From NCBI GenBank assembly GCA_964493085.1, contig CAZBLV010000013.1, forward strand, positions 2,033-66,032: a stretch of 64,000 bases of DNA. The letters are read 5' to 3'. Of this stretch, positions 2,370 through 59,456 are shown piece after piece. The translations under genes were made by a program, and so were the position numbers. The DNA comes from an uncultured Candidatus Saccharibacteria bacterium. GTDB lineage: Bacteria > Patescibacteriota > Minisyncoccia > Minisyncoccales > GWA2-38-27. Numbering within the stretch: position 1 is the first letter of the stretch; every line of letters begins with the position of its first letter. Below the pieces are notes generated by a model that was not told the DNA's origin, did no database searches, and saw nothing but the letters and a program-made list of their open reading frames with translations.

Positions 2370-3606
2370 ATTTTTCGACATTATCCCGCCGGGGGAAGAA
2401 ATTGAAACAGCAGAAGAAAAGCAGGTTTCTTATAAAGATCAGCCTGAAAAGAAAGAGAAAAAGTCTTCTGGAAGAAAGATAAAAAGAGTTGTTATCGGCA
2501 TCGGTTTTCTCCTGCTTCTGGCTGGAGCAGGAATGTTTTTTTTCCGCTCTGCCGAAGTAAGGATTTATCCGCAAGTTACGAATCTTGAGCTTGAGGAAAA
2601 TATCACGATTGTCCCTTCGAAAGAACAAACTGACTTTGTCGCTAAATCTATTCCAGGTGAAATAGTCGAGGTCGAGCAGTCAATGGCTAAAGATTTTTCT
2701 GCTACCGGTAAAACTTCAGAGGAAAAAAGAGCCAGAGGCACGATTAGAGTTTACAACGCTTATTCTACCAGCCCTCAAATTCTAGTTGCTTCCACAAGAT
2801 TTGTTTCTGCTGACGGCAAGCTTTTTCGTTCTGTCCAGAGAGAAACCATATCCGGAGGCCGTTACGAAGAAGGGGAGTTTGTGCCGGGCTATGCTGATAT
2901 AGAGGTGAAGGCGGCGGAGCCGGGCGAAGAATACAACATAGAAGCTACTACTTTTTCTATTCCGGGGTTTTCAGGGACAGACCGCTATACGGATTTTTAC
3001 GGGAAATCTTTCCAAGCCATGGAAGGCGGATATATAGGGGAAATGTCTCAGGTTACCCAAGAGGATCTTGCCAGAGCAAGAGAGCAGGCAATAGACCAGG
3101 CTAAAAGAGAAAGCAGGGACTTGTTGGGGGAGAGAGTTTCCCAAGAATTTGATATTGCAGAAGAAACTATTGTCCAAGAAATACTTTCAGAGGCAGCTTC
3201 AGCTCAAGCCGGGGATGTTGCAGAAACCTTTAATTATCAAGTTGAGGTCAAAACAACGGGTTTGTCTTTTAAAAAGAGCTATTTGCAGGATTTTGCCGAC
3301 AATCTTCTTAATTTGAGCTTGCCTGAGAAAAAAAAGATAAAAGAAGGCACTCGGGAATTCAGCTATTCTGTTATAGAGGCAAAAGACAGCGGAGCAGACC
3401 TTAAAATCAAAGTTCAAGCAAAAGCTTATTACGATCTGGATCTGACCGCCCTCAAAGGTTTTTTGGCCGGCCAGAGCCGGCAGGAGGCAGAGATTATGCT
3501 GAATAACCAGCCGGGCATAGAAAGAGCGGAAATAGACTTGGGAGGATTTTGGAACAGAAAATTTCCCAAAAAGCCGGAAGAGATAAAAATAGAGCTTCTT
3601 TTCTAA
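2359..3606 (+). CDS. hypothetical membrane-anchored protein
   Basis: The ATG at 2359 (MSNKFFDIIPP...) overlaps the upstream gene by 11 nt. There is one TM helix (VVIGIGFLLLLAGAGMFFF) followed by ~350 aa with no recognisable motif. Confidence 0.6.
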   Translation: MSNKFFDIIPPGEEIETAEEKQVSYKDQPEKKEKKSSGRKIKRVVIGIGFLLLLAGAGMFFFRSAEVRIYPQVTNLELEENITIVPSKEQTDFVAKSIPGEIVEVEQSMAKDFSATGKTSEEKRARGTIRVYNAYSTSPQILVASTRFVSADGKLFRSVQRETISGGRYEEGEFVPGYADIEVKAAEPGEEYNIEATTFSIPGFSGTDRYTDFYGKSFQAMEGGYIGEMSQVTQEDLARAREQAIDQAKRESRDLLGERVSQEFDIAEETIVQEILSEAASAQAGDVAETFNYQVEVKTTGLSFKKSYLQDFADNLLNLSLPEKKKIKEGTREFSYSVIEAKDSGADLKIKVQAKAYYDLDLTALKGFLAGQSRQEAEIMLNNQPGIERAEIDLGGFWNRKFPKKPEEIKIELLF

Positions 3607-7737: not shown

Positions 7738-9096
7738 TTAGGGGATCAGGGAGTCGGAACAGAAAAAGTTTTCTCGAGAGAGCAGGCATAGTTTCCCTAT
7801 TTCTTGGTACCAGAATATTTCAGGTTCTGGAAACTCTGCCAGATCAACAGAATTCATCCCATTTCTGTTGTCAATTTCTGAAACCTTTATTTTATCTCCG
7901 CTATTGAATATTAAATAGTGGGGGGTGTACCAAAAAACATTTCCTATTTTTCTTGAAAAGCGGCTGAAAAACTGGATTTCTCCTTTTTCTCTTTTGGGCT
8001 GCCCTGCAATGCTCTCAAGAAAGATTATTCCGATTTCAGATTCGCTGAAATAGCTTATTTTTTTGCTGTCCGGGGAAACTCTTATCCCTTCCACCTCTTC
8101 TGCTATTTTTTCAAACCGGTTTTCCCCTGGTTTCAGTAAGTAGAAGCTTTTCCCTTCCAGCAAAGCGATATGGGAATTCACTTTTTCTATGGTATATTTT
8201 GTCTCTTTTTTTATTAAGAAAGGCTCGTTAGTTATTTTTTCCTGTGAGCTGAGACTGTAGTCGCTTTTTAATAAAAAGCCCTCTTGGTCTAACAAGTAAA
8301 TGCCGTCTTTTTCTAAGGAAACAGCTGCCACTTCTTTCAGGGATCTCTTTTGTCCCATTTCTGACAATTCGTTTTCTCTTAGGTAGAAAATCCTGGAACT
8401 TTCCTCCGGGTGGAAATAAACTTCAGCAGCGCCGGATAATTCTATTTCCTCCAAAGAAGCGGGCAAAGAAGAGATATTTAAAACAAAATACCTTATTTCC
8501 CCTTGTATTCCAGCCTTTAAAAAAGCGTTTTTTCCATCAGGCGTAATCTTTAAGGATATTAAATCAGCGCCCTCTTTTGAAAGATTCTTTTCGGCTACAA
8601 GATGGCTTTTTAAATTTTTATCAGCCTCTATCAGCTTTAAGGACCACTGTTCTTCTTCCAGTTCAGTTATTATTGTTTTTTGGTTTTGAGTAGAAAAAAA
8701 AGACTTTCTAATATTTTTGGAAATGAGGCGGAACTCCGGATTCTCGGGAATCAGAACTATGTTTTTTGCTTCTGTTAATTCTCCTTTCTTTATTTCCAGG
8801 CTTTTCTCCCAGGAATGGTATCCGCTTCTTGCGACCTTAAAAGTGTGGCCGCCGGGGGCAATGTTTTCAATAAGGAGGGATCCGAAAAAAATATCTGTTC
8901 TGCCTTTTCTCTTGTTGTCCAAAAAGACGTTAGTCGTCCGGGGGGCTGTTTTGCAATAAAACATCCCTGGTTTAGTAAATTTTTTTTCTTCCCAATTAAA
9001 GCGCCACCCCATAGAATAAAAAACAAGAAGAGGGGCCACAGTCAAAAAAAGAATAACAAAAAATGCGAAAATTATTCTGCGAGTTCGTTTTTTCAT
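7738..9096 (-). CDS. hypothetical membrane protein with PEGA-like domain
   Basis: The probable start is ATG 9096 (MKKRTRRIIFAFFVILFL...), although the ORF is open to 9171. There is an N-terminal TM helix and a PEGA-like stretch NVFLDNKRKGRTD...APGGHTFKVARSGYHSWEKSLEIK. The rest is unassigned. Confidence 0.6.
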   Translation of the reverse strand: MKKRTRRIIFAFFVILFLTVAPLLVFYSMGWRFNWEEKKFTKPGMFYCKTAPRTTNVFLDNKRKGRTDIFFGSLLIENIAPGGHTFKVARSGYHSWEKSLEIKKGELTEAKNIVLIPENPEFRLISKNIRKSFFSTQNQKTIITELEEEQWSLKLIEADKNLKSHLVAEKNLSKEGADLISLKITPDGKNAFLKAGIQGEIRYFVLNISSLPASLEEIELSGAAEVYFHPEESSRIFYLRENELSEMGQKRSLKEVAAVSLEKDGIYLLDQEGFLLKSDYSLSSQEKITNEPFLIKKETKYTIEKVNSHIALLEGKSFYLLKPGENRFEKIAEEVEGIRVSPDSKKISYFSESEIGIIFLESIAGQPKREKGEIQFFSRFSRKIGNVFWYTPHYLIFNSGDKIKVSEIDNRNGMNSVDLAEFPEPEIFWYQEIGKLCLLSRENFFCSDSLIP

Positions 9097-9204
9097 GCCA
9101 ATAGTGAATTTTACCAGAAAAACAAAAATATCCAAGTTTTTGTACTTCGCATTCCTAGCTTCGCTTGTCATTTGCTTAATTTTGGACTAAGATAGTATAT
9201 AAAG

Positions 9205-10518
9205 ATGGCTGAAAAATTCGTAATAAAAGGAGGCAAGCAGCTTAAGGGAGAAATAGAGGTAAAAGGAGCGAAGAACTCGGCTCTTCCCATTCTTGCCGCT
9301 ACCATATTGACTGATGATCCTTGCGTGATTGGCAATTTGCCCTTGATCCAAGACGTTTTTAGAATGCTGGAAGCCATAGAGAGTTTGGGCGCCAGCATTA
9401 CCTGGCTTGGAGAAAGAAAGGTGAAGATTGATGCCAGGGGAGTTGAGGCTGACAACATTCCCTTTGAAGCAATAGCTAGATTTCGCGGCTCTGTTCTTCT
9501 TCTTGGATCTCTTTTGGCTCGCTTTAACAAAGTAGAAATCCCGCCTCCTGGGGGATGTCTTATCGGTGCCCGCCCTCTAGATACTCATTTGGACGCTTTT
9601 TCCCAACTAGGGGTTGGATCTGAAGCGAAAGAAGGAATTTTTTCTTTTAAAAAGGCAGAATTGCCTGAAGATTCTTTTGAAACCCTGGAGTTTTTCAAAA
9701 GGAAGCAGAAAGAAAAAAACTTAAAAGAGGTAGTTCTTAAAGAATTTAGCGTCACCGCTACAGAAAATGTTCTTTTGTATTCTTCTTTAGGGAAAAAAAA
9801 GATTTTGCTGAAAATTACAGATCAGGACTACCAGGTTCAGGAGCTAATAGAAGTTTTGCGGCAAATGGGGGCAGAGATCGAGATTAAAAAGTGCCACGTT
9901 ATTGAAATACAGGGCAATGAAAAGTTAAAAGGGTTTAATTATACAATCAAGCCCGATCCTATTGAAACAGGTACTTTGATGGTCGCGGCTTTAGCCACCA
10001 AGGGCGAGGTGGTTATAAAGAATGCCGCTCTTTCTTTTTTAGACCTTTTCCTTAAAAGACTTTATGATTCCGGAGCCCGGTTTAAAATTACCAAAGAAGA
10101 CGAATTAAAGGTTTTCCCCTCCAGAGGCCTTAGAATAGATAAAATACAAAGCTTGCCTTATCCCGGCATACACAGTGATTTGCAGCCTGAACTCGGAGTT
10201 TTGGCTACTCAGAGCAAGGGATCTACGCTAATCCACGATCCTTTGTACGAAGGGAGATTGAAATATTTGGAAGAATTGAATAAAATGGGGGCTGATATTA
10301 TTTTCTGCGATCCTCATAGAGCCATAATCAGCGGGCCCACTCCTTTGAGAGGAGTAGAGATACCCAGCCTTGATCTTAGGGCTGGCGCCGCTCTGATTAT
10401 TGCCGGACTGATTGCAGAAGGAGAAACCATAATAAATAATATTTATCAAATTAGTCGCGGATACGAAGAGATAGCAGAACGCCTTCGGTCTTTGGGGGCA
10501 GATATTAAAGAGATATAG
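9205..10518 (+). CDS. murA: UDP-N-acetylglucosamine 1-carboxyvinyltransferase
   Basis: MAEKFVIKGGKQLKGEIEVKGAKNSALPILAA; active-site loop PPGGCLIGARPLDTH; C-terminal YQISRGYEEIAERLRSLGADI. Confidence 0.9.
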   Translation: MAEKFVIKGGKQLKGEIEVKGAKNSALPILAATILTDDPCVIGNLPLIQDVFRMLEAIESLGASITWLGERKVKIDARGVEADNIPFEAIARFRGSVLLLGSLLARFNKVEIPPPGGCLIGARPLDTHLDAFSQLGVGSEAKEGIFSFKKAELPEDSFETLEFFKRKQKEKNLKEVVLKEFSVTATENVLLYSSLGKKKILLKITDQDYQVQELIEVLRQMGAEIEIKKCHVIEIQGNEKLKGFNYTIKPDPIETGTLMVAALATKGEVVIKNAALSFLDLFLKRLYDSGARFKITKEDELKVFPSRGLRIDKIQSLPYPGIHSDLQPELGVLATQSKGSTLIHDPLYEGRLKYLEELNKMGADIIFCDPHRAIISGPTPLRGVEIPSLDLRAGAALIIAGLIAEGETIINNIYQISRGYEEIAERLRSLGADIKEI

Positions 10519-41925: not shown

Positions 41926-42008
41926 GGGCAGGTGGCAGAGTGGACTAACGCATCAGACTGTAAATCTGACGGCTTCGGCCTTCGGGGGTTCGAATCCCTC
42001 CCTGCCCA
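41926..42008 (+). tRNA. tRNA-Tyr (GUA), long variable arm
   Basis: Acceptor GGGCAGG/CCTGCCC, anticodon arm TCAGA-CTGTAAA-TCTGA, variable arm CGGCTTCGGCCTTC, T loop TTCGAAT. Confidence 0.85.
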
Positions 42009-42014
42009 CCGCTT

Positions 42015-42087
42015 GCCAAGGTAGCTCAGCTGGTAGAGCATCCCCATGGTAAGGGGAAGGTCACGAGTTCAAATCTCGTCCTTGGCT
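42015..42087 (+). tRNA. tRNA-Thr (GGU)
   Basis: Acceptor GCCAAGG/CCTTGGC, anticodon arm TCCCC-ATGGTAA-GGGGA, T arm ACGAG-TTCAAAT-CTCGT. Confidence 0.85.
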
Positions 42088-42111
42088 CATAATAATTAAA
42101 AGAAAAAACTT

Positions 42112-42273
42112 ATGGCGGTAAAGAAAAAACCTTTTGTAAAGCTTCAGTGCCAGGAGTGCAAGAATATAAACTACTTTTCTAATAAATCCAAAGGAGTAGA
42201 GGGAAAGTTAGAGCTGAAAAAGTTCTGCAAGCACTGCAGAAAGCACACCACCCATAAAGAAATCAAGAAATAG
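42112..42273 (+). CDS. rpmG: ribosomal protein L33 (not in the supplied ORF track)
   Basis: Hand translation gives [53 protein letters not shown] (53 aa, CxxC...CxxC). Confidence 0.9.
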
Positions 42274-42375
42274 TTTTTTGGAGAGACTTGCCGCCTTTTT
42301 TTAGAGGCAGAATGTAGCTATGGCGCGAAAAAGACGATGTTGCTGTCCCTTCTTTAAAAAAACAATGATTAACGA

Positions 42376-42447
42376 GGGGGTATAAGCTAATTGGCAAACT
42401 GTCGGTCTCCAAAACCGATCTTCTAGGTTCGACTCCTAGTACCCCCG
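42376..42447 (+). tRNA. tRNA-Trp (CCA)
   Basis: Acceptor GGGGGTA/TACCCCC, anticodon arm TCGGT-CTCCAAA-ACCGA, T arm CTAGG-TTCGACT-CCTAG. Confidence 0.8.
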
Positions 42448-42509
42448 CATACCGTCTCTTTATGCTTTTTTTTATTTGACATCCTTTTAGGGGCAAGGTA
42501 ATGTTTAAT

Positions 42510-52679: not shown

Positions 52680-54558
52680 ATATCCCAATTTGATAAACCT
52701 TATTGCCGTTCAGTATCCAGGCCGTTTCTCCTGTTTCAGAGATTGCCAAATCCCTTAAATCAGTAAACTTATTGCTCCGGATTTGCTTGACCACCTGTGC
52801 TTTTTCTTTGTCGACAATTATTATTCTCTTTTGGCTCGGCTCTAAAAGATAAAGATAGGGGAGGGCAGCGTTTGTGGTTATCCTTTCTATTTTTTCAATA
52901 AAGGGGAAAATGTCTAACTTAACCTCTTTTTTTAAGACGCCCTGGTAGAATTCCCAGATCTTGTTTTCTTCGCCCAAAATCCAGACAGATCCGTCTATGG
53001 CCAAAGATTTTGGTTTGGAGCAGGAAAAATCATCTTCCAGCCAGTTTCGGGGAACTCCCCATTGAAGTTTTGCTACGGACGGGTATTTTACAATCTGGCA
53101 GTCTCGGGTTAGGAAATAAATGCTGGACCAGTAGCTGACCGCGTCTACAAATTCTTCCTTCCAGGGCTCTATGCTTTTTGAAATCCAGCCCTGTTCATCA
53201 AGGGAAATAATATTTTTCGGCGGAGAATAAAAGATTGCTTTATTCTGGTAATTGGCAGCCAGGCTAATCGGTTGGTTGCTGGGCACAAACTGCTCTTTTG
53301 GATATATTTGATATACGCCCCCTTGACTCTGCAAATAAACAGAATCTCCTGCTGCCAAAATACTAACAGCGTTTGGCCCTTGAGAATCTATTTCCGACAC
53401 AATAACCGGGTTTTCTATCTCCTCTAGATTGTTAAGGCGGAACAACTTTTGCTCCGTGGTTTCTTTAAGGTCCTCAACCCTGGGAGTCGAGGGAAGCAGA
53501 GAGATTTCTTTCCAGGCCTGTTTTAATAAATCATTGGCTTCTTCTTTTTGGTCAAAAAGAGAATAGTTTTCCGCTTCTGCTATCTTTTTTTCCACCTGGC
53601 TTATTTTCTTTTCCGCTTCCGCTTTCTTGTTTTCTTGGCTTTGCCTGAAGATCAAAAATCCCAGAAGCAAAATCGCTAAAAGAAGTAATATCAAAATCAC
53701 TTTTTTAGAAAGCCGGAAAGGAACGGAAATTCTCTTTTTTGTTCTTTTTTTTGGCGACTTCTTAAATGTTTTTCTCTTTAGTCTTCTGATGGGAGCCAGG
53801 ACAGGATCAAAAACGCCTTTCCAAGAAAAACTTTTCTGATTTTGAAACAGCATAGTGGTTGGACTTTCTTTTTTCAGCTCCTTTTTAAAAGCCAGAATCA
53901 TAAGAGCTCCAGCCGTCTCTGCCCCGTCTTCTTTTTTAAAAAGGGAAGAGGGAAGTATTTCTTTGATTTCCTTTTCTTCTATTTCTCCTCCCTTGTCAGC
54001 TAGTCGGGATAGCAGCCCCTTTTTTGACAGAAAATCGTAGACTTTTTCCGTCATCATCATCATTAAATCGCTCTGTTCTATTTTTCCTGAAATTACATTG
54101 AAAAAAACTTTCAGCGGGTAAGGATCTATTTCTTGCTTTTCTAAACCTCCGCCTATGTCTATAATATTCCCTGCTCTGGCCAGCAGGATTTTTATATTAC
54201 CTGTTTTGGTGAAACTTAATTCCAGCCCCTTTATCGAGAGGACGGCAAATCCAAGATTACCTAGCCAATGGACATTGTTCCGCTGAACCTCTTCTGACAG
54301 AAAAGAATTAGCCGACCTTAGCGAGTTAGTTAAAGAGGTTTCCGGCTTTCCGACCAAAGAAGAGTAAAAGTTTTTTTTGATATTTTCTGCTAAATCATTT
54401 AAGAGCCTTAGGTCTTGGGGAAGGGAAGATTTCACTTCTCCTAAGGCGTATAGTCCTCCCATTCTTTTTTCTGAGGCTTTCTCCGGGCGGTAGATGAAGG
54501 TGTCGAAAGAATAGTCCTTTTTTGCTTTTGGATTGAAGTGGAGTTCGAATATCTGCAT
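52678..54558 (-). CDS. hypothetical bitopic membrane protein (626 aa)
   Basis: A ~270-aa cytoplasmic N-terminal domain, a central TM helix (VILILLLLAILLLGFLIF), a coiled-coil stretch, and a C-terminal repeat-like beta-rich region. No motif recognised. Confidence 0.6.
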   Translation of the reverse strand: MQIFELHFNPKAKKDYSFDTFIYRPEKASEKRMGGLYALGEVKSSLPQDLRLLNDLAENIKKNFYSSLVGKPETSLTNSLRSANSFLSEEVQRNNVHWLGNLGFAVLSIKGLELSFTKTGNIKILLARAGNIIDIGGGLEKQEIDPYPLKVFFNVISGKIEQSDLMMMMTEKVYDFLSKKGLLSRLADKGGEIEEKEIKEILPSSLFKKEDGAETAGALMILAFKKELKKESPTTMLFQNQKSFSWKGVFDPVLAPIRRLKRKTFKKSPKKRTKKRISVPFRLSKKVILILLLLAILLLGFLIFRQSQENKKAEAEKKISQVEKKIAEAENYSLFDQKEEANDLLKQAWKEISLLPSTPRVEDLKETTEQKLFRLNNLEEIENPVIVSEIDSQGPNAVSILAAGDSVYLQSQGGVYQIYPKEQFVPSNQPISLAANYQNKAIFYSPPKNIISLDEQGWISKSIEPWKEEFVDAVSYWSSIYFLTRDCQIVKYPSVAKLQWGVPRNWLEDDFSCSKPKSLAIDGSVWILGEENKIWEFYQGVLKKEVKLDIFPFIEKIERITTNAALPYLYLLEPSQKRIIIVDKEKAQVVKQIRSNKFTDLRDLAISETGETAWILNGNKVYQIGI

Positions 54559-54632
54559 TAATATATTATAACTAGCAGAAACAGAAAAGCAAAAGGTTTA
54601 CTCTTAACAAGCAAAGTTATAAAATGGTAGCG

Positions 54633-54707
54633 GGACGGTTGGCTCAGCGGCAGAGCGCTTCGTTCACATCGAAGAGGACGCAGGTTCGATTCCTGCACCG
54701 TCCACCA
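54633..54707 (+). tRNA. tRNA-Val (CAC) with encoded CCA
   Basis: Acceptor GGACGGT/ACCGTCC, D arm GCTC-AGCGGCA-GAGC, anticodon arm CTTCG-TTCACAT-CGAAG, T arm GCAGG-TTCGATT-CCTGC, discriminator A, then CCA (54705-54707). Confidence 0.85.
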
Positions 54708-54732
54708 AACAGGATTCTGCAAAAGACAAAGA

Positions 54733-54807
54733 GGTTTGCTCACCGCGCCTGCGGGCGCGGCTCGCAAGGAACGAACCGCCTCATTTCCGAAAAAATTTCG
54801 CGGCGAA
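54733..54807 (+). repeat. repeat element copy A (inverted partner at 56561-56643)
   Basis: Its parts are GGTTTGC, the hairpin CCGCGCC-tgcg-GGCGCGG (54743-54760), CCGCCTC (54776-54782), and the 24-mer TTTCCGAAAAAATTTCGCGGCGAA (54784-54807). Confidence 0.8.
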
Positions 54808-54838
54808 TTAAAGGAAAATTTTTTATTTTTGTTTGTTG

Positions 54839-54870
54839 CAGAAATTCTGATGAATTTCTGTTTTTGTTTT
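54839..54870 (+). terminator. rho-independent terminator downstream of tRNA-Val and repeat A
   Basis: A perfect 9-bp stem CAGAAATTC-tgat-GAATTTCTG followed by TTTTTGTTTT. Confidence 0.75.
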
Positions 54871-54980
54871 AAAAACTTTATTTTTTCTATGTTTTTTGGT
54901 AATGTGCGTTAGAGGAGGGTCAAGCTGGTGCTTGGCTCAATTTGTACCTCGAAAACCAAATACAGGAAAGGATAATCGTC

Positions 54981-55742
54981 ATGATCAGTAACGCAACGTC
55001 AGACAGACTCGCCCTTGAAGTTTTGAGGGCCGACACGCTGGAACTCAGAGCGGTCCCAAAGAAGGTGACCAACGAAGAGGTAGATAGTCTACCTCTCAAC
55101 GTGCAGCCGTTTCTTTACGCCTCGGGCAACTGGGGGCCTGGTTATCTCATGATTAAGGGTTTGGTCGGCAATAAGCCGCTGATCAGATGCCTTGGTCGCT
55201 ACTTGGCGCTCGAAATCGCCGAGAAATGGCCGACCGAAATCGATTTTGTTGCTGGCAACGTTACCGGCGGCATGATCCCGGGCTGGTTGATCAGCGAAGA
55301 GTTGGAAGTCCTTCTCGGTAAGCGGATTCCATTCGTTTATATCCGGGAACTTCGGAAGACCGGCGGTCAGAAGGAACTCATCACCGGCTACCAAAAGAAT
55401 CGGGAAATTCCTCCCGGCTCCAGCGGTTTGGATATGGAGGAACTGGTTAACTTCGCCCAGACCATTGCCAACGGCGCGATTTGCCTTCGCGAAGTGGGAT
55501 TCGTCTGTACGAAAGGTGCTTGCATCCTTTACTACGACAATCCTGTTGCGAACAAGGATTTGGCCGCCGCCGGAATCGAGATGGTTTCGTTGCTTACCCT
55601 CCCAAGGATCATCGACGTGGCCGAGCGGTTTGGTACACACCCCAAGGAACTTTTGGTCGAGTACCGCGAGTTCCTGAAAAATCCGTTGCAATGGCAGGCC
55701 GATCGCGGTCTGGCGCATGTAGAAAGAGGGGGTACGAAATGA
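54981..55742 (+). CDS. orotate phosphoribosyltransferase-family protein, divergent PRPP-binding loop
   Basis: ATG 54981 has an AAAGGA Shine-Dalgarno. It is colinear with PyrE: FLYASGNWGPGY (compare FxLxSGxxSPxY), DFVAGNVTGGMIPG, FVYIRELRKTGGQKELITG, and the C-terminal LVEYREFLKNP. The canonical VDDVxTxG loop reads MEELVNFAQT. Confidence 0.7.
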   Translation: MISNATSDRLALEVLRADTLELRAVPKKVTNEEVDSLPLNVQPFLYASGNWGPGYLMIKGLVGNKPLIRCLGRYLALEIAEKWPTEIDFVAGNVTGGMIPGWLISEELEVLLGKRIPFVYIRELRKTGGQKELITGYQKNREIPPGSSGLDMEELVNFAQTIANGAICLREVGFVCTKGACILYYDNPVANKDLAAAGIEMVSLLTLPRIIDVAERFGTHPKELLVEYREFLKNPLQWQADRGLAHVERGGTK

Positions 55743-56431
55743 AAAATCCATTTCTTTTCGTGGCACTCGACGACCTTGGCAACAAGGAATGGGAAACCCT
55801 GGAGGTTGTTCGAGAATTGGATCAAGTACCCGGCAATTTCGGGTATAAAATCAATCTTGACTGCCTAATGGCTGGAGGCGTCAGTGCGACTATCCGTAAA
55901 CTGCTAGTTTCGCGTCCGATCTTTGCCGACACTAAGACATGGAACGGCAAAAGGACAATGGCCGACCTCGCCAAGATGCTGGTTGACGCCAGCGTGGACT
56001 ACTTTAATGTCTGGGTTCAAGCGGACGATCAGCTCGCAGGCGCGGTCAAGGCCACCGAGGGTTCTAAGACCAAGATTCTCGGAGTTACCGTGCTCACTCA
56101 TTACAGTGATGATTGGTGCAGGATGTATTTCCGCCGCTCGCTTGAGGAGACAGTTGTTTTTCTTACTCAGCGAGCAAAGGATCTCGGTTTGCACGGCGTT
56201 GTTTTGCCGGGAACTTGCTTGCCAGCGGTCATGGACAGCGATCGGATCAAGACCGTGCCCGGAATCCGTATGGAGGATTTCAAGGACGATAGGCACAAGC
56301 AGGAGGTCACTCCGGAATTCGCAACTCAAAACGGAGCGGACATAGTCGTGTGCGGAAGCCCGATCATGAAGGTTTCCGACAAGGCGAGCGCGCTTCGTCA
56401 GGTTCTTGCGCGATTGACTGTCACACAGTGA
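55739..56431 (+). CDS. orotidine-5'-phosphate decarboxylase-family protein (short bacterial type), altered catalytic motif
   Basis: ATG 55739 overlaps the upstream stop (ATGA). Motifs: FVALD, YKINLD, FADTKTWNGKRT (DxKxxN instead of DxKxxD), VTVLTH, VPGIR, and IVVCGSPI. Confidence 0.7.
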   Translation: MKNPFLFVALDDLGNKEWETLEVVRELDQVPGNFGYKINLDCLMAGGVSATIRKLLVSRPIFADTKTWNGKRTMADLAKMLVDASVDYFNVWVQADDQLAGAVKATEGSKTKILGVTVLTHYSDDWCRMYFRRSLEETVVFLTQRAKDLGLHGVVLPGTCLPAVMDSDRIKTVPGIRMEDFKDDRHKQEVTPEFATQNGADIVVCGSPIMKVSDKASALRQVLARLTVTQ

Positions 56432-56506
56432 ACAACAAGAGGTCCAGCGGCACCTCGTCATAACAAGACAAAGCCGCTTTTTTCTTTGCCAAAACTTTCC
56501 TTTAAA

Positions 56507-56522
56507 TCAGAAAATTTTCTGA
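56507..56522. promoter_or_regulatory. perfect 16-bp palindrome TCAGAAAATTTTCTGA
   Basis: Exact dyad symmetry in the 357-nt gap between the two island modules. It could be an operator-like site or a hairpin. Confidence 0.35.
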
Positions 56523-56560
56523 AATAAGTTGTGATTAACTTATAGTTTTTATTGTTAAAG

Positions 56561-56643
56561 TTCGCCGCGAAATTTTTTCGGAAAGCGAGGGCGAGGCGGG
56601 ATTTTGCGAAACGCCGCAGGCGTTTCTCTCAAAAAAGGTTTGC
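56561..56643 (-). repeat. repeat element copy B1 (inverted copy of 54733-54807)
   Basis: 56561-56584 is the exact reverse complement (24/24) of 54784-54807. GAGGCGG (56593-56599) and the hairpin GAAACGCC-gca-GGCGTTTC (56608-56626) sit in equivalent positions. Confidence 0.8.
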
Positions 56644-56676
56644 GTATTTTTAATTATAGTCCACCAAATTGAATTA

Positions 56677-56708
56677 GTCGCCTCGTTTGAGAAAAATTTT
56701 TTGGGAGG
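56677..56708. repeat. repeat element B2 (inverted partner at 59509-59542)
   Basis: AGTCGCCTCGTTTGAGAAAAATTTTTTGGGAGG. Its reverse complement aligns by hand with 59509-59542 at about 28 of 33 positions. Confidence 0.6.
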
Positions 56709-56788
56709 ACTTGAAAAATACAGGTCAAATGATAATCTAAATTCGGTAAAGTGTTCTTTCAAAATTACATAAACAGGAGGAAAATGAG

Positions 56789-58180
56789 ATGAAAACACGC
56801 GACCAGTTCGACAGTCTCTCACCGGTTGACTACCGATACTGGGATGAAGAAGTGGCGAAGTATCTCTCCGAGAACGGGTTTACCCGCTACAAGCTTCTCG
56901 TGGAGCTTGCGCTTGTGAGAGCGCTTCACCGCCGTGGAATTTGTCCCGAAGTTGCCGTCAAAGAAGTTGAGACGGCGTGCGGCCGAGTTACGGCCGCCGA
57001 AGTTTACAAGGAAGAAGACCGAATCCGGCACGACATCCGTGCGCTCGTGAACTGCATCCGCGCCGAAGTTAGCGATGTAGCGAAGCCGTACGTCCATATG
57101 ACGGCGACTTCGTTTGATATTGTTGATCCGGCGAACGCGGCTCGCTACAAGGATGCGATCGAGAAAGTACTTGTTCCGTCGCTTACCAAGCTGGAAGGAG
57201 TGCTCATCGCTACCACGCTCCGCGAAGTAGAGACGGTGCAAGTTGGCAGAACTCACGGACAGCACGCCGTACCGATTACGTTCGGATTCGCACTAGCCGG
57301 ATATGTAAGCCGTCTCGGCAACTCTATCGAAAAATTGAGTACGCTCGCCAAAGAATTGCCGGGTAAGTTTTCCGGAGCGGTCGGAGCGTACAACGCCTCC
57401 TCGCTGTTCTTTAATGATCCGGAGAGCTTTGAGGCGGAAGTCCTCGCCGAACTTGGATTAATTGCGGCGGAACACTCGACGCAGATCGTGCCGCCGGAGG
57501 CGTTGACGCGCCTCTTCTGCGAAGTTACGATTGTGGCGGGCATTTTCGCCAACTTGTCCGACGACATGCGGAATCTTCAACGGACAGAGATCGGAGAAGT
57601 GGGCGAAGAGTTTGAAGCGGCGCAGGTCGGTTCCTCGACCATGCCACAGAAACGCAACCCTATCAACTTTGAGAACGCCAAGAGTTGTTGGAAAATCGTC
57701 GCGCCGCGAATCTTGACGGTGTTCATGGACCAAATTAGCGAACACCAGCGTGACCTTACCAATTCCGCCTCCGCGCGGACTTACGGCGAGATTGTCGCAT
57801 ATGTGGTTTCGATCGCAAAGCGACTCACGCGCACCATGAAGAAGCTCACTGTTGACCGCGTTAACTTGGAGCGCAACCTCGCTATGCAGAAGGGCTTGGT
57901 GGTTGCGGAGCCGCTCTACATTATCCTCGCCGCGCTTGGACACCCCGACGCTCACGAGAAGGTGCGGATGCTCACACTTCAAGCCCAACACGAGGTGCGA
58001 CCACTCGAAGAAGTTGTTTTCGGCGATGTGGAGATACAGGGTTATCTTAAACGGATGACTCCCTACCAACGGCAGATTATCTCTAACCCGTCTCTATATA
58101 CGGGCATCGCCGCCAAGAAAGCGAAAGTGGTCGCGGAAAGATGGCAGCAAAAACTCAATCTCAATAGAAAGGAGAGATAG
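56789..58180 (+). CDS. purB: adenylosuccinate lyase
   Basis: SPVDYRY at the N-terminus; GRTHGQHAVPITFG; fumarate-lyase signature GSSTMPQKRNPINFEN. AGGAGG Shine-Dalgarno upstream. Confidence 0.85.
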   Translation: MKTRDQFDSLSPVDYRYWDEEVAKYLSENGFTRYKLLVELALVRALHRRGICPEVAVKEVETACGRVTAAEVYKEEDRIRHDIRALVNCIRAEVSDVAKPYVHMTATSFDIVDPANAARYKDAIEKVLVPSLTKLEGVLIATTLREVETVQVGRTHGQHAVPITFGFALAGYVSRLGNSIEKLSTLAKELPGKFSGAVGAYNASSLFFNDPESFEAEVLAELGLIAAEHSTQIVPPEALTRLFCEVTIVAGIFANLSDDMRNLQRTEIGEVGEEFEAAQVGSSTMPQKRNPINFENAKSCWKIVAPRILTVFMDQISEHQRDLTNSASARTYGEIVAYVVSIAKRLTRTMKKLTVDRVNLERNLAMQKGLVVAEPLYIILAALGHPDAHEKVRMLTLQAQHEVRPLEEVVFGDVEIQGYLKRMTPYQRQIISNPSLYTGIAAKKAKVVAERWQQKLNLNRKER

Positions 58181-58181
58181 A

Positions 58182-59456
58182 GTGAACAGCACAGTGCAGT
58201 TACTGGCAGAGGGAAAGACGAAGAAAATCCTGACAGCGGAAGCTCCAGGACAAGTGATCGTCGAATCCAAGGACGATCTTACCGCTGGAGATGGTGCGAA
58301 ACACGACATCATCGCTGACAAGGCATCACTCTCGAACAGAACTACGTCGAATGTGTTCCGGCTTCTCAAGGCATGCGGCATTCCGGTCGCTTTCCTTGAT
58401 GGGGTGGACGAGACGCGATTCCTCGCAGAGCAGTGCGACATGATTCCCTACGAAGTGGTTGTCAGGCGAGAGGCGCACGGTTCGTTCCTCAAGCGTTATC
58501 CGGGAATTCAAAAGGGGCATATTTTTCCGCGCCTTCTGTTGGAGTTCTTTCTGAAGACTTCTGGCAGGAAGTGGAAAGACGCCGATCTCCCGAAGGACGA
58601 TCCCTTCATGCGTTTCGATGAGAATCGTGCTTTGCTGTATCTGCCCGATCAGCCAATCCATCAACAGACACCGTTTCTGATTCTTGACGATTTTCCTTTG
58701 CGGGAGTCGCCTGACGGAATCAAGCAAATCAGCAAAGTTGCCGTCAAGACCTTTCTCATTCTGGAGAAAGCGTGGCAACTCGTTGGGCGGAGACTGGTGG
58801 ACTTCAAGGTGGAGTTCGGAACGAACACTGCGGGAGAGGTACGGCTCGCTGACGTGATCGACAACGATTCGTGGCGGGTGCTTGACGAAGGAAAATACAT
58901 CGACAAGCAACTTTACCGCGACGGCGCGGATCTCAACATCGTCACAGCGAAGTACCGACTGGTAGCAGAGTTAACCAGTAACTTCAGCCTACCGCGCCAA
59001 CAGATTATTCTCTGGCGAGCTTCAGCGTCCGATGACCTGAAGGCATTTGAGGACGCTATCGCGGCTTACGGTGCGAACAAGGCTTGCGATGTGGAAATCG
59101 CAACTTGCTCTCTTCACAAGGATCCGATTCGAGCGTGCGAAGAAGTCGCTAGACTGGTGCAGGAAGTTCCCAACTCCGTAGTGATTGTCTTCTGCGGAAG
59201 AAGTAATGGAGCGGGGCCGACTCTGTCCACGCAATGCACTGTGCCGGTAATCACGGTTCCAGCAACGTGGCGGGAGTTCCCCGAAGATGTGTGGTCATCG
59301 CTCCGCACGCCGAGCGAGACGCCGGTCGTTACAATCCTCGATCCTAAGAACGCTGTTCTTTCGGCGCTTCAAATTCTTGCGATGGGAAACCCACGGCTCT
59401 ATGCCGAGCTTCGCTTTCGGCAAGAGAAGCGTCTCCACAATATTATTAGACTCTGA
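58182..59456 (+). CDS. bifunctional SAICAR synthetase / AIR carboxylase fusion (PAICS-like, PurC-PurE)
   Basis: GTG start 1 nt after the purB stop, with an AAGGAG Shine-Dalgarno. The N-terminal half has AEGKTKKIL, SKDDLTAGDGAKHD, GSFLKRYPG and LADVIDNDSWR. The C-terminal half has PurE-like WRASASDD, CGRSNGAGPTLS and DVWSSLRTP. Confidence 0.8.
   Translation: MNSTVQLLAEGKTKKILTAEAPGQVIVESKDDLTAGDGAKHDIIADKASLSNRTTSNVFRLLKACGIPVAFLDGVDETRFLAEQCDMIPYEVVVRREAHGSFLKRYPGIQKGHIFPRLLLEFFLKTSGRKWKDADLPKDDPFMRFDENRALLYLPDQPIHQQTPFLILDDFPLRESPDGIKQISKVAVKTFLILEKAWQLVGRRLVDFKVEFGTNTAGEVRLADVIDNDSWRVLDEGKYIDKQLYRDGADLNIVTAKYRLVAELTSNFSLPRQQIILWRASASDDLKAFEDAIAAYGANKACDVEIATCSLHKDPIRACEEVARLVQEVPNSVVIVFCGRSNGAGPTLSTQCTVPVITVPATWREFPEDVWSSLRTPSETPVVTILDPKNAVLSALQILAMGNPRLYAELRFRQEKRLHNIIRL

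What the first reader, a model, noticed from the sequence alone, without database searches (positions are those of the whole stretch)
54981..56431. Translationally coupled PyrE-like/PyrF-like pair with non-canonical catalytic motifs
- Both proteins are colinear with their families but deviate at textbook positions.
- In the PRTase, the PRPP-binding loop (hydrophobic-D-D-V-x-T-x-G in OPRTs) reads GLDMEELVNFAQT. It has EE in place of the acidic pair and lacks the T-x-G phosphate-binding turn. The N-terminal KSGxxSP region reads ASGNWGP.
- In the decarboxylase, the DxKxxD catalytic array reads DTKTWN, so the last Asp is Asn. The following IPxT reads GKRT, and the phosphate-gripping GR of VVGRxI reads CGSPI.
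- The genes overlap by ATGA, which suggests a stoichiometric pair.
- Such coordinated changes suggest a different base and ribotide substrate rather than orotate/OMP. Alternatively one partner may be catalytically dead.
Basis: partly seen in the sequence, partly recalled or inferred. Interest (0 to 1): 0.6.

Follow-up and report, generated by a model that had tools for sequence, protein, structure and literature searches.

The report
Divergent mobile orotate-to-UMP gene pair
Two overlapping genes encode a strongly conserved, horizontally mobile offshoot of the last two enzymes of pyrimidine synthesis, found in ultra-small symbiotic bacteria, archaea and some viral contigs; its decarboxylase lacks residues that a 2025 review reports as conserved in, and essential to, all orotidine-phosphate decarboxylases.

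Summary
ORF A (54981-55742) is an OPRT-fold protein and ORF B (55739-56431) an OMPDC-fold protein. They overlap by ATGA, and every quoted motif is present.

The deviations are not decay and not private to this genome. They are the signature of a family of about 100 clusters at 50% identity, found in CPR/Patescibacteria, DPANN archaea and a few viral contigs. The two genes are always adjacent, usually overlap by 4 nt, are fused in both orders in some relatives, and are under purifying selection (dN/dS 0.06-0.15). OMPDC residues D11, K37, D64, K66 and T120 are kept. The third acid of DxKxxD is Asn, the phosphate-gripper Arg is Ser, and a new Arg (R72) is fixed.

In this window the pair is a roughly 2-kb GC-rich insertion directly after tRNA-Val, bracketed by a perfect 24-nt inverted repeat.

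Dihydroorotate dehydrogenase genes of three different architectures lie next to the pair in four relatives. I therefore favour a non-canonical orotate-to-UMP module (about 0.55) over a new substrate (about 0.25) or a dead partner (about 0.05).

The neighbouring PurB and PAICS genes are a separate unit.

The parts
54633..54707 (+). tRNA-Val (CAC). The cassette begins directly after its 3' end.
   Evidence: ARAGORN; Rfam tRNA, 69 bits. In L010 the same cassette left-end sequence follows a tRNA-Tyr.
54700..54716 (+). Left copy of a possible att-like direct repeat (GTCCACCAAACAGGATT). It overlaps the tRNA 3' end.
   Evidence: The 10-nt core GTCCACCAAA occurs only twice in the 64 kb, against 0.12 expected. 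This is weak on its own.
54784..54807 (+). Left arm of a perfect 24-nt inverted repeat bracketing the pair.
   Evidence: It is unique in the window, with 0 matches expected. Its right-arm counterpart matches the inverted repeat that flanks the pair in L008.
54981..55742 (+). ORF A: 253-aa OPRT-fold type I phosphoribosyltransferase (divergent PyrE).
   Evidence: AF2 pLDDT is 87 and the best fold match is Burkholderia OPRT 4ohc.
55104..55145 (+). Motif QPFLYASGNWGPGY (residues 42-55), the equivalent of E. coli FTLKSGRKSPYF.
   Evidence: F44, L45, Y46, G49, G52 and Y55 are invariant in the family.
55344..55388 (+). Catalytic flexible loop RELRKTGGQKELITG (R122-G136). K126 aligns with E. coli K103.
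   Evidence: Alignment. R122, R125, K126, G128, G129, K131 and E132 are invariant. Residues 126-130 are low-confidence in the model, as expected for a mobile loop.
55437..55463 (+). PRPP-motif equivalent EELVNFAQT (E153-T161).
   Evidence: E153, E154, L155, V156, N157, A159 and T161 are invariant.
55739..55742 (+). ATGA start/stop overlap (translational coupling).
   Evidence: The same 4-nt overlap occurs in 20 of 38 loci and a 1-nt overlap in 4 more.
55739..56431 (+). ORF B: 230-aa OMPDC-fold protein (divergent PyrF).
   Evidence: Pfam OMPdecase E 4e-20. AF2 pLDDT is 94.9. Foldseek top hit is B. subtilis OMPDC 1dbt, TM 0.89.
55928..55957 (+). Motif DTKTWNGKRT (D64-T73), the equivalent of DxKxxD-IPNT. 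N69 replaces the third acid and R72 is a new, conserved Arg.
56354..56359 (+). G206-S207, the equivalent of the phosphodianion-gripper Gly-Arg.
56561..56584 (-). Right arm of the 24-nt inverted repeat.
56659..56675 (+). Right copy of the possible att-like direct repeat (GTCCACCAAATTGAATT).
   Evidence: DNA homology to the cassettes in L008-L010 ends at about 56605-56664.

Best explanation
The two genes encode a self-contained, two-step nucleotide-forming module descended from PyrE and PyrF.

Inferred mechanism:
1. The PRTase condenses orotate with PRPP to give OMP.
2. The OMPDC-fold partner, made in step with it through the ATGA overlap, decarboxylates OMP to UMP.

This would let genome-reduced CPR bacteria and DPANN archaea, and possibly some of their viruses, make pyrimidine nucleotides from scavenged orotate or dihydroorotate without the rest of the de novo pathway.

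The decarboxylase uses a re-wired active site. The Asp-Lys-Asp-Lys core and the pyrimidine-binding Thr are kept. The dimer-interface Asp is Asn, a new Arg is fixed three residues later, and the phosphate-gripper Arg is Ser.

In this genome the module arrived as a roughly 2-kb mobile cassette inserted directly after tRNA-Val.

Shown: homology, folds, family-wide motif conservation, purifying selection, strict pairing and fusions, mobility, and the neighbourhood link to dihydroorotate dehydrogenase.

Inferred: the substrates, and that the variant site still decarboxylates.
For: Fold and homology:
- The best sequence and structure matches are exclusively OPRTs for A and OMPDCs for B.

Retained residues in B (B. 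subtilis equivalents in brackets):
- D11, K37 (K33), D64 (D60), K66 (K62), T73 (T69) and T120 (T123) are kept.
- The O2/phosphate Gln is kept in the DPANN, viral and deeper clades.

Retained residues in A:
- The acidic pair E153-E154 is kept.
- The catalytic loop has K126 aligned to E. coli K103, which PMC10087573 describes as essential and PPi-contacting.

Selection and coupling:
- dN/dS is 0.06-0.15 for both genes.
- Identities of A and B to the window proteins co-vary across 38 loci, r = 0.96.
- Fusions exist as PRTase-DC and as DC-PRTase, as in UMP synthase.

Neighbourhood link to orotate. Dihydroorotate dehydrogenase genes lie next to the pair in four loci:
- L067: class-2-like, same strand and directly downstream of the decarboxylase gene.
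- L031: class-1-like, together with an MFS transporter.
- L028: a PyrD-PyrK fusion in a complete Nealsonbacteria genome, Pfam DHO_dh 162 bits.
- L021: a fragment.
They represent independent recruitment of three architectures.

Other support:
- Canonical pyrF loci recovered in the same scan also sit beside pyrD.
- No defence-system match was found.
Against: - The review PMC12874384 states that the D96'A variant of yeast OMPDC has no detectable activity, that DXKXXD is reported in OMPDC from all organisms, and that R235A costs 5.6 kcal/mol. This family lacks both residues.
- NCBIfam pyrE and pyrF equivalog scores are far below their cut-offs: 59 against 245 bits, and 93 against 193 bits.
- Dihydroorotate dehydrogenase is adjacent in only 4 of about 45 loci, and those proteins themselves score below the equivalog cut-offs.
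- A Mesh1-like HD hydrolase is a recurrent neighbour and once a fusion partner. It has no role in a plain orotate-to-UMP route.
- No whole genome could be inspected for canonical pyrE/pyrF or pyrB/pyrC.
Confidence: 0.55

Rival explanations
1. Same chemistry, different substrate. The PRTase ribosylates a carboxylated heterocycle other than orotate. The OMPDC-fold enzyme then removes the carboxylate, or performs another C6-carbanion reaction. The product would be a non-UMP nucleotide, perhaps processed further by the associated HD phosphohydrolase.
For: - The family-wide changes fall on ligand-contacting positions: D65' to N (sometimes K or H), N68' to R, R215 to S, and Q194 to H in the CPR clades.
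- The net charge near the ribose and base becomes more positive, while the 5'-phosphate gripper Arg is lost.
- The 5'-phosphate loop and the KSP motif of the PRTase are also altered.
- A Mesh1/HDDC3-like hydrolase is adjacent in L012, L021, L024, L027, L029, L066 and L067, and is fused to the PRTase in P0079.
- Patchy, mobile, cross-domain and viral distribution is more typical of accessory functions than of core pyrimidine synthesis.
Against: - The dihydroorotate dehydrogenase neighbours point to orotate.
- The pyrimidine-contacting Thr is conserved, and the Gln is conserved in deep clades.
- The PRTase deviations are shared with accepted OPRT subfamilies.
- No candidate alternative substrate is indicated by any neighbour.
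Confidence: 0.25
2. One partner is a pseudoenzyme. The PRTase-like or OMPDC-like protein has lost catalysis and serves as a structural or regulatory subunit of the other.
For: - B lacks residues whose Ala substitutions in yeast OMPDC abolish (D96') or strongly reduce (R235) activity.
- The window PRTase does not reach the Pfam PF00156 threshold.
- Degenerate extra PRTase copies exist next to, or fused with, the conserved copy: P0061-type proteins, L031, L067 and L076.
Against: - Both proteins are under strong purifying selection.
- Their invariant residues concentrate at the canonical active-site positions: D11, K37, D64 and K66 in B; E153, E154, R122, K126 and the Gly-rich loop in A.
- Where a degenerate PRTase copy exists, a fully conserved copy is always present as well.
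Confidence: 0.05
3. The four GC-rich genes (PRTase, decarboxylase, PurB-like lyase, PAICS-like enzyme) form one novel pathway. For example, they might build an imidazole or purine-type ribotide from a carboxylated base.
For: The four genes are contiguous, lie on the same strand, and share about 0.53-0.56 GC against about 0.40 in the flanks.
Against: - DNA homology to the cassettes in L008-L010 covers only about 54855-56605.
- None of 45 other pair-containing loci carries the lyase or PAICS, including 88-91%-identical ones.
- The lyase and PAICS travel together elsewhere without the pair (L055, L058).
- An inverted repeat and a possible att repeat close off the pair before the lyase gene begins.
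Confidence: 0.05

Closest known systems
Orotidine 5'-phosphate decarboxylase (PyrF), bacterial type, e.g. B. subtilis 1dbt, E. coli 1eix
   Same: - Same TIM-barrel fold (TM 0.89).
- Colinear over the whole length.
- Keeps the beta1 Asp, beta2 Lys, the Asp-x-Lys of beta3, the interface Thr, the pyrimidine-contacting Thr, and the PGxR loop.
- Encoded next to an OPRT-like gene.
   Different: - The third acid of DxKxxD is Asn (Lys or His in a few members).
- IPNT becomes G-x-R-T, with a new conserved Arg.
- The phosphodianion-gripper Arg is Ser.
- The gripper Gln is His in the CPR clades.
- An aromatic residue (W or F) precedes the Asn.
- Scores are far below the NCBIfam pyrF equivalog cut-offs.
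Orotate phosphoribosyltransferase (PyrE), Burkholderia type (NF001729; PDB 4ohc, 9e5g)
   Same: - Same type I PRTase fold.
- Same C-terminal FLxxPxxW extension.
- Acidic pair before the 5'-phosphate loop.
- Flexible catalytic loop with an Arg and a Lys at the positions of E. coli R99 and K103.
- Like this subfamily, it lacks the Gly-containing turn.
   Different: - The 5'-phosphate loop reads LVNFAQT instead of LTTDSRS or LISTGGS.
- SGxxSP becomes SGN(W/R)GP.
- There is a longer insert (NNPEIPxGAxG) before the PRPP motif.
- The CPR clades carry a conserved C-terminal ExGGT tail.
- The window protein gave no Pfam PF00156 match at E <= 0.1, although some relatives do match.
UMP synthase (fused OPRT-OMPDC of animals; OMPDC-OPRT of kinetoplastids, PDB 3qw4)
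   Same: Relatives of this pair are fused in both orders. Elsewhere the two genes are translationally coupled. Both facts imply consecutive steps.
   Different: The fusions arose within this divergent family and carry its variant motifs. The window has two separate proteins.
KGPDC / HPS members of the OMPDC suprafamily
   Same: Same barrel, and an Asp-x-Lys motif at beta3.
   Different: - By my recollection, those enzymes have a metal-binding Glu at beta2 and keep the final Asp. This family has Lys at beta2, like OMPDC.
- All top fold and HMM matches are OMPDC. HPS appears only at E of about 0.005-0.02.

Membership tests
OMPDC (PyrF) | (beta/alpha)8 OMPDC fold | tested here: met
   AF2 pLDDT 94.9. 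All 50 top Foldseek PDB hits are sequence relatives of OMPDC (a few are deposited under other names); the best is 1dbt, TM 0.89.
OMPDC (PyrF) | Curated profile thresholds | tested here: inconclusive
   Pfam PF00215 scores 73 bits against a cut-off of 27, so it is met. NCBIfam equivalogs are not met: NF001273 scores 93 against 193 and TIGR01740 scores 75 against 92.
OMPDC (PyrF) | beta1 Asp, beta2 Lys, and the Asp-x-Lys of beta3 (yeast D37, K59, D91, K93) | tested here: met
   D11, K37, D64 and K66 are invariant or nearly invariant in the family.
OMPDC (PyrF) | Third acid of DxKxxD (yeast D96', B. subtilis D65') | tested here: not met
   N69 in the window. It is N in about 85% of the family and otherwise K, H or L. 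It is D in all of the roughly 55 canonical sequences. PMC12874384 reports that D96'A has no detectable activity.
OMPDC (PyrF) | Phosphodianion-gripper Arg (yeast R235, B. subtilis R215) | tested here: not met
   S207 in the window. It is S, G or T in most of the family, and R is retained only in a few fused members.
OMPDC (PyrF) | Gripper / O2-contacting Gln (yeast Q215, B. subtilis Q194) | tested here: not met
   H186 in the window and in the CPR crown clades. Gln is retained in the DPANN, viral and deep clades.
OMPDC (PyrF) | Pyrimidine N3/O4-contacting Ser/Thr (yeast S154, B. subtilis T123) | tested here: met
   T120 aligns with T123 and is T or S throughout the family.
OMPDC (PyrF) | Decarboxylation of OMP to UMP | not testable with these tools
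   This needs an enzyme assay or complementation.
OPRT (PyrE) | Type I PRTase / OPRT fold | tested here: met
   AF2 pLDDT 87.4. The top 24 Foldseek hits are all OPRTs or UMP synthase; the best is 4ohc.
OPRT (PyrE) | Curated profile thresholds | tested here: not met
   The window protein has no Pfam hit. The best NCBIfam hit, NF001729, scores 59 bits against a cut-off of 245.
OPRT (PyrE) | Acidic pair of the PRPP motif (E. coli D124-D125) | tested here: met
   E153-E154 are invariant. Accepted OPRTs also read E-D.
OPRT (PyrE) | 5'-phosphate turn T-x-G-(T/S) after the acidic pair | tested here: not met
   The window reads N-F-A-Q-T. The Burkholderia OPRT 4ohc also lacks the Gly (T-T-D-S-R-S), so this feature is not strictly defining.
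OPRT (PyrE) | Catalytic flexible loop with Lys (E. coli K103) | tested here: met
   K126 aligns with K103 and R122 with R99, and both are invariant. The role of K103 is taken from PMC10087573.
OPRT (PyrE) | Lys of the KSG motif (E. coli K26) | tested here: not met
   A47 in the window. S. pyogenes OPRT (2aee) also has Ala here, and it is the backbone NH that binds the orotate carboxylate.
OPRT (PyrE) | Orotate + PRPP giving OMP + PPi | not testable with these tools
   This needs an assay. The indirect support is the DHODH neighbours in L021, L028, L031 and L067.
KGPDC / HPS (OMPDC suprafamily) | Metal-ligand Glu at the end of beta2 (feature recalled from my own knowledge, not from a tool result) | tested here: not met
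   The position is the invariant K37. HPS profiles score E of only about 0.02.

The most novel reading that the evidence does not exclude
The pair makes a nucleotide other than UMP. On this reading the coordinated loss of the interface Asp and the 5'-phosphate gripper Arg, the gain of a conserved Arg next to the ribose-contacting Thr, and the recurrent Mesh1-like pyrophosphohydrolase partner together mark a new PRPP-dependent route. That route would be carried on a cassette exchanged between CPR bacteria, DPANN archaea and their viruses. The product could be, for example, a ribotide with an extra anionic group or an unusual base.
Probability: 0.22. Interest if true: 0.8.

Novelty: new variant of a known kind. 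Interest (0 to 1): 0.55.

Why it matters
OMPDC is the textbook example of extreme catalytic proficiency. Its DxKxxD motif and its phosphodianion-gripper Arg are treated as universal and essential.

A natural, widespread clade under purifying selection lacks both. If it still decarboxylates OMP, it is a ready-made test of what those residues really contribute. If it does not, it marks a new reaction on the same scaffold.

Biologically, the cassette suggests how ultra-small symbionts that lack de novo nucleotide synthesis can turn a host-derived intermediate, orotate or dihydroorotate, into UMP. It also shows that this capacity moves horizontally between bacterial and archaeal episymbionts and turns up on viral contigs.

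Tried and rejected
- **Defence-system origin.** There were no PADLOC hits for A, B, the HD protein, the lyase or PAICS. PHROGs gave nothing meaningful.
- **Riboswitch or leader RNA upstream of A.** The Rfam E-value scan of 54300-57000 found only tRNA-Val. This also means the ARAGORN 'tmRNA*' at 54611-55366 is not confirmed.
- **One four-gene pathway with PurB and PAICS.** Rejected because the linkage is unique to this window.
- **S-to-H change at the pyrimidine-binding Ser.** This was my own first reading. Careful numbering against 1dbt shows that T120 is the equivalent of T123, and that H121 aligns with a position that is His in several of the canonical OMPDCs recovered here.
- **Literature.** Six searches found no paper on this family.
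- **Whole-genome checks.** I could not test for canonical pyrE/pyrF or pyrB/pyrC in carrier genomes, because only 10-kb flanks are retrievable. tblastn with E. coli PyrB, PyrC and Upp found nothing in the window or in any locus.
- **L008 inverted repeat.** The 140-nt perfect repeat equals k-1 of a k141 assembly, so its length is not trusted.
- **Residue mapping in 3-D.** Model coordinates are not returned, so R72, R185 and N69 could not be placed relative to a bound ligand.
Full report
**1. What is in the sequence**

ORF A runs from ATG 54981 to TGA 55742 (253 aa). ORF B runs from ATG 55739 to TGA 56431 (230 aa). They share the tetranucleotide ATGA, and a purine-rich GAGGGGG run precedes the start of B.

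- Pfam recognises B as OMPdecase (E 4e-20) but gives no hit for A.
- NCBIfam places both nearest to pyrE and pyrF equivalogs, far below the curated cut-offs: 59 against 245 bits for A, and 93 against 193 bits for B.
- AlphaFold models are confident: pLDDT 94.9 for B and 87.4 for A.
- Their best PDB matches are B. subtilis OMPDC (1dbt, TM 0.89) and Burkholderia OPRT (4ohc). Nothing but OMPDC relatives for B, or OPRTs and UMP synthase for A, appears near the top of the lists.

**2. The deviations are a family signature, not decay**

Homologue searches found hundreds of relatives of each protein. These come from CPR/Patescibacteria such as Falkowbacteria, Nealsonbacteria, Berkelbacteria, Uhrbacteria, Moranbacteria and Andersenbacteria. 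A genome scan added DPANN archaea: Pacearchaeota, Woesearchaeota and Aenigmatarchaeota. An exhaustive profile search gave about 100 clusters at 50% identity with E <= 1e-30, and then an abrupt switch to canonical OMPDCs.

The changes below use B. subtilis 1dbt numbering, with the window residue in brackets.

Kept in the family:
- D11, K33 (K37), D60 (D64), K62 (K66)
- T69 (T73), T123 (T120)
- the P-G-x-R loop and G214 (G206)

Changed in the family:
- H64 to W or F
- D65 to N (N69); a few members have K, H or L, and only two outliers have D
- I66 to G
- N/T68 to R (R72)
- R215 to S (S207)
- Q194 to H in the CPR clades, while Gln is retained in the DPANN, viral and deep clades

All of the roughly 55 canonical OMPDCs in the same output keep D65 and R215.

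For the PRTase, the following residues are invariant:
- the loop residues R122, R125, K126, G128, G129, K131 and E132
- the acidic pair E153-E154
- L155, V156, N157, A159 and T161

An alignment with E. coli PyrE, taken from NC_000913.3, puts K126 on the catalytic K103 and E153/E154 on D124/D125.

dN/dS against the cassettes in L008-L011 is 0.06-0.09 for A and 0.10-0.15 for B.

**3. How surprising are the changes?**

For the decarboxylase they are very surprising. A 2025 review (PMC12874384) makes these points:
- The D91A, K93A and D96'A variants of yeast OMPDC have no detectable activity.
- R235A raises the barrier by 5.6 kcal/mol.
- D37, D96' and T100' contact the ribosyl hydroxyls.

For the PRTase they are less surprising:
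- The Burkholderia-type OPRT reads VEDLTTDSRS and has no Gly turn. It is the closest canonical subfamily and shares the C-terminal FLxxPxxW extension.
- The S. pyogenes OPRT reads WASGIKSP, with no Lys at the E. coli K26 position.
- According to PMC10087573, it is the backbone NH of K26 that binds the orotate carboxylate.

**4. The two genes are one unit**

- In all 29 family loci from the genome scan, and in every other locus retrieved, the PRTase gene lies immediately upstream of the decarboxylase gene.
- Of 38 non-redundant loci, 20 have a 4-nt ATGA or GTGA overlap, 4 have a 1-nt overlap, and most of the rest have gaps of 41 nt or less.
- Identities of A and B to the window proteins correlate with r = 0.96.
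- Single-ORF fusions occur as PRTase-DC (L051, L052, P0275, P0278, P0303, P0304, P0306, P0308, P0322) and as DC-PRTase (P0289).

**5. The unit is mobile, and here it is an insertion at tRNA-Val**

- The pair has GC of 0.53, against 0.42 for the rest of the window (about 0.40 in the adjacent flanks). The same discordance appears in L008, L011, L012 and L020.
- DNA similarity to the 84-87%-identical cassettes of L008-L010 covers only about 54855-56605.
- The pair is bracketed by a perfect 24-nt inverted repeat, at 54784-54807 and 56561-56584, which is unique in the window.
- A possible att-like repeat of the tRNA-Val 3' end lies at 54700-54716 and 56659-56675. Its 10-nt core occurs only twice in 64 kb, against 0.12 expected.
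- In L010 the same left-end sequence, AAACAGGATTYTGYAAAA, follows a tRNA-Tyr. There the cassette separates tRNA-Tyr from tRNA-Thr, two genes that are 4 nt apart in this window.
- Other loci place the pair just downstream of tRNA-Val, tRNA-Leu, tRNA-Thr or tRNA-Lys.
- Recombinase genes lie next to it in L001 (tyrosine type) and L074 (large serine type).
- Five IMG/VR contigs carry the pair. One is phage-like, with the pair near a PolA-UDG fusion gene.
- In one CPR lineage the pair sits in a conserved gatCA...pheST-gyrB context, so it is also inherited vertically.

**6. What it most likely does**

Most neighbours are unrelated housekeeping genes, but two kinds recur.

*(a) Dihydroorotate dehydrogenase*
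- L067 (Aenigmarchaeota): a class-2-like PyrD on the same strand, directly downstream of the decarboxylase gene.
- L031: a class-1-like PyrD plus an MFS transporter, convergent with the pair.
- L028, the complete Nealsonbacteria genome CP179887.1: a PyrD-PyrK fusion. It scores 162 bits on Pfam DHO_dh, 207 bits on NCBIfam pyrD_sub1 and 151 bits on the electron-transfer subunit model.
- L021: a fragment.

Three unrelated architectures recruited beside the pair argue that its substrate is the DHODH product, orotate. The retained pyrimidine-contacting Thr and, in the deep clades, the Gln agree with this.

*(b) A Mesh1/HDDC3-like HD hydrolase* (PDB 3nr1 and 5vxa, E about 2e-4)
- It is adjacent to the pair in L012, L021, L024, L027, L029, L066 and L067.
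- It is fused to the PRTase in P0079.
- Truncated remnants lie upstream of the pair in L008 and L010.
- Of four HD-family loci sampled, two carry the pair and one has PRPP synthetase about 1.2 kb away.

The role of this hydrolase is unexplained. It is the main reason I keep a substantial probability on a non-UMP product.

**7. Verdict**

- The 'dead partner' idea is not supported.
- The 'different substrate' idea is possible but is now the minority reading.
- My best explanation, at about 0.55, is a non-canonical, mobile UMP-synthase-like module for using orotate or dihydroorotate in organisms that lack the rest of the pathway. Its decarboxylase active site breaks the supposedly universal DxKxxD / gripper-Arg rule.

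This is a new variant of a known kind. I found no paper describing it.

**8. The neighbouring genes**

The PurB-like lyase (56789-58180) and a PurC-PurE fusion (58182-59456) share the high GC, but they are a separate unit.
- They recur together without the pair in L055 and L058.
- They are absent from every other pair locus.

The fusion aligns end to end with the animal bifunctional PAICS (4ja0 and 2h31, E down to 1.6e-62).

Noticed in passing
window 56789-59456 (+): A second GC-rich unit lies directly after the pair. It comprises an adenylosuccinate-lyase-like gene and a 424-aa PurC-PurE fusion. The fusion aligns end to end with animal bifunctional PAICS (PDB 4ja0 and 2h31, E down to 1.6e-62). 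The two genes recur together in metagenome contigs L055 and L058 without the pyrE/pyrF-like pair. This is a purine mid-pathway fragment in a CPR genome.
   Followed up: partly
L012 571-1143; L021 1735-2226; L024 10573-11097; L027 6706-7242; L029 8636-9199; L066 6001-6492; L067 6001-6501; P0079 N-terminus: A family of small (about 165-190 aa) Mesh1/HDDC3-like HD hydrolases is found in CPR and DPANN, with 723 hits. It is recurrently adjacent to the pair and is once fused to the PRTase. Truncated remnants sit upstream of the pair in L008 (1343-1585) and L010 (about 9085-9237). In L069 it lies about 1.2 kb from a PRPP synthetase gene. Its function is unexplained.
   Followed up: partly
window 54784-54807 / 56561-56584; L008 1041-1180 / 3184-3323: Inverted repeats bracket the cassette: 24 nt and perfect in the window, 140 nt and perfect in L008. 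The L008 length equals k-1 of a k141 assembly and may be an artefact, but 44 nt of it match the window's right arm.
   Followed up: partly
window 54611-55366: ARAGORN reports a permuted 'tmRNA*' spanning tRNA-Val and the start of ORF A. Rfam finds only the tRNA there, so the tmRNA call is not confirmed.
   Followed up: yes
L051 5649-7004; L052 6748-8253; L053 9330-10672; L050 9297-10681: IMG/VR contigs carry the pair. Two contigs labelled as giant-virus MAGs have it as a single fused ORF. A 46-kb phage-like contig has it near a PolA-UDG fusion, a radical SAM gene and a DnaJ gene. A 152-kb contig with 25% GC has it inside a sugar-nucleotide/glycan gene cluster.
   Followed up: partly
P0061, P0088, P0101, P0116; L031 1426-2739; L067 4682-5908; L076 7220-7858: The PRTase is often internally duplicated, or is preceded by a degenerate second copy that has lost the EELVNF motif. 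This suggests pseudo-heterodimeric versions of a normally homodimeric enzyme.
   Followed up: no
L075 6360-7082: In one Nealsonbacteria-like contig an additional 240-aa PRTase lies just upstream of the pair. It has a canonical VEDAITTGGS PRPP motif and a C-terminal CxxC element. Its best hit is the Thermus-type pyrE model, below the cut-off.
   Followed up: no
L028 8464-9078 and 15086-15607: In the complete Nealsonbacteria genome the pair is flanked by a YfbR-like HD_3 nucleotidase and the PyrD-PyrK fusion, with a DUF84 non-canonical NTPase nearby. Together these form a small nucleotide-metabolism neighbourhood.
   Followed up: no
window 41926-42448 versus L010 8855-11284: The tRNA-Tyr / tRNA-Thr / tRNA-Trp cluster is intact in the window, with a 4-nt spacer. 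In L010 it is split by the roughly 2-kb cassette. This amounts to an empty-site versus occupied-site comparison, although the two genomes are different.
   Followed up: partly
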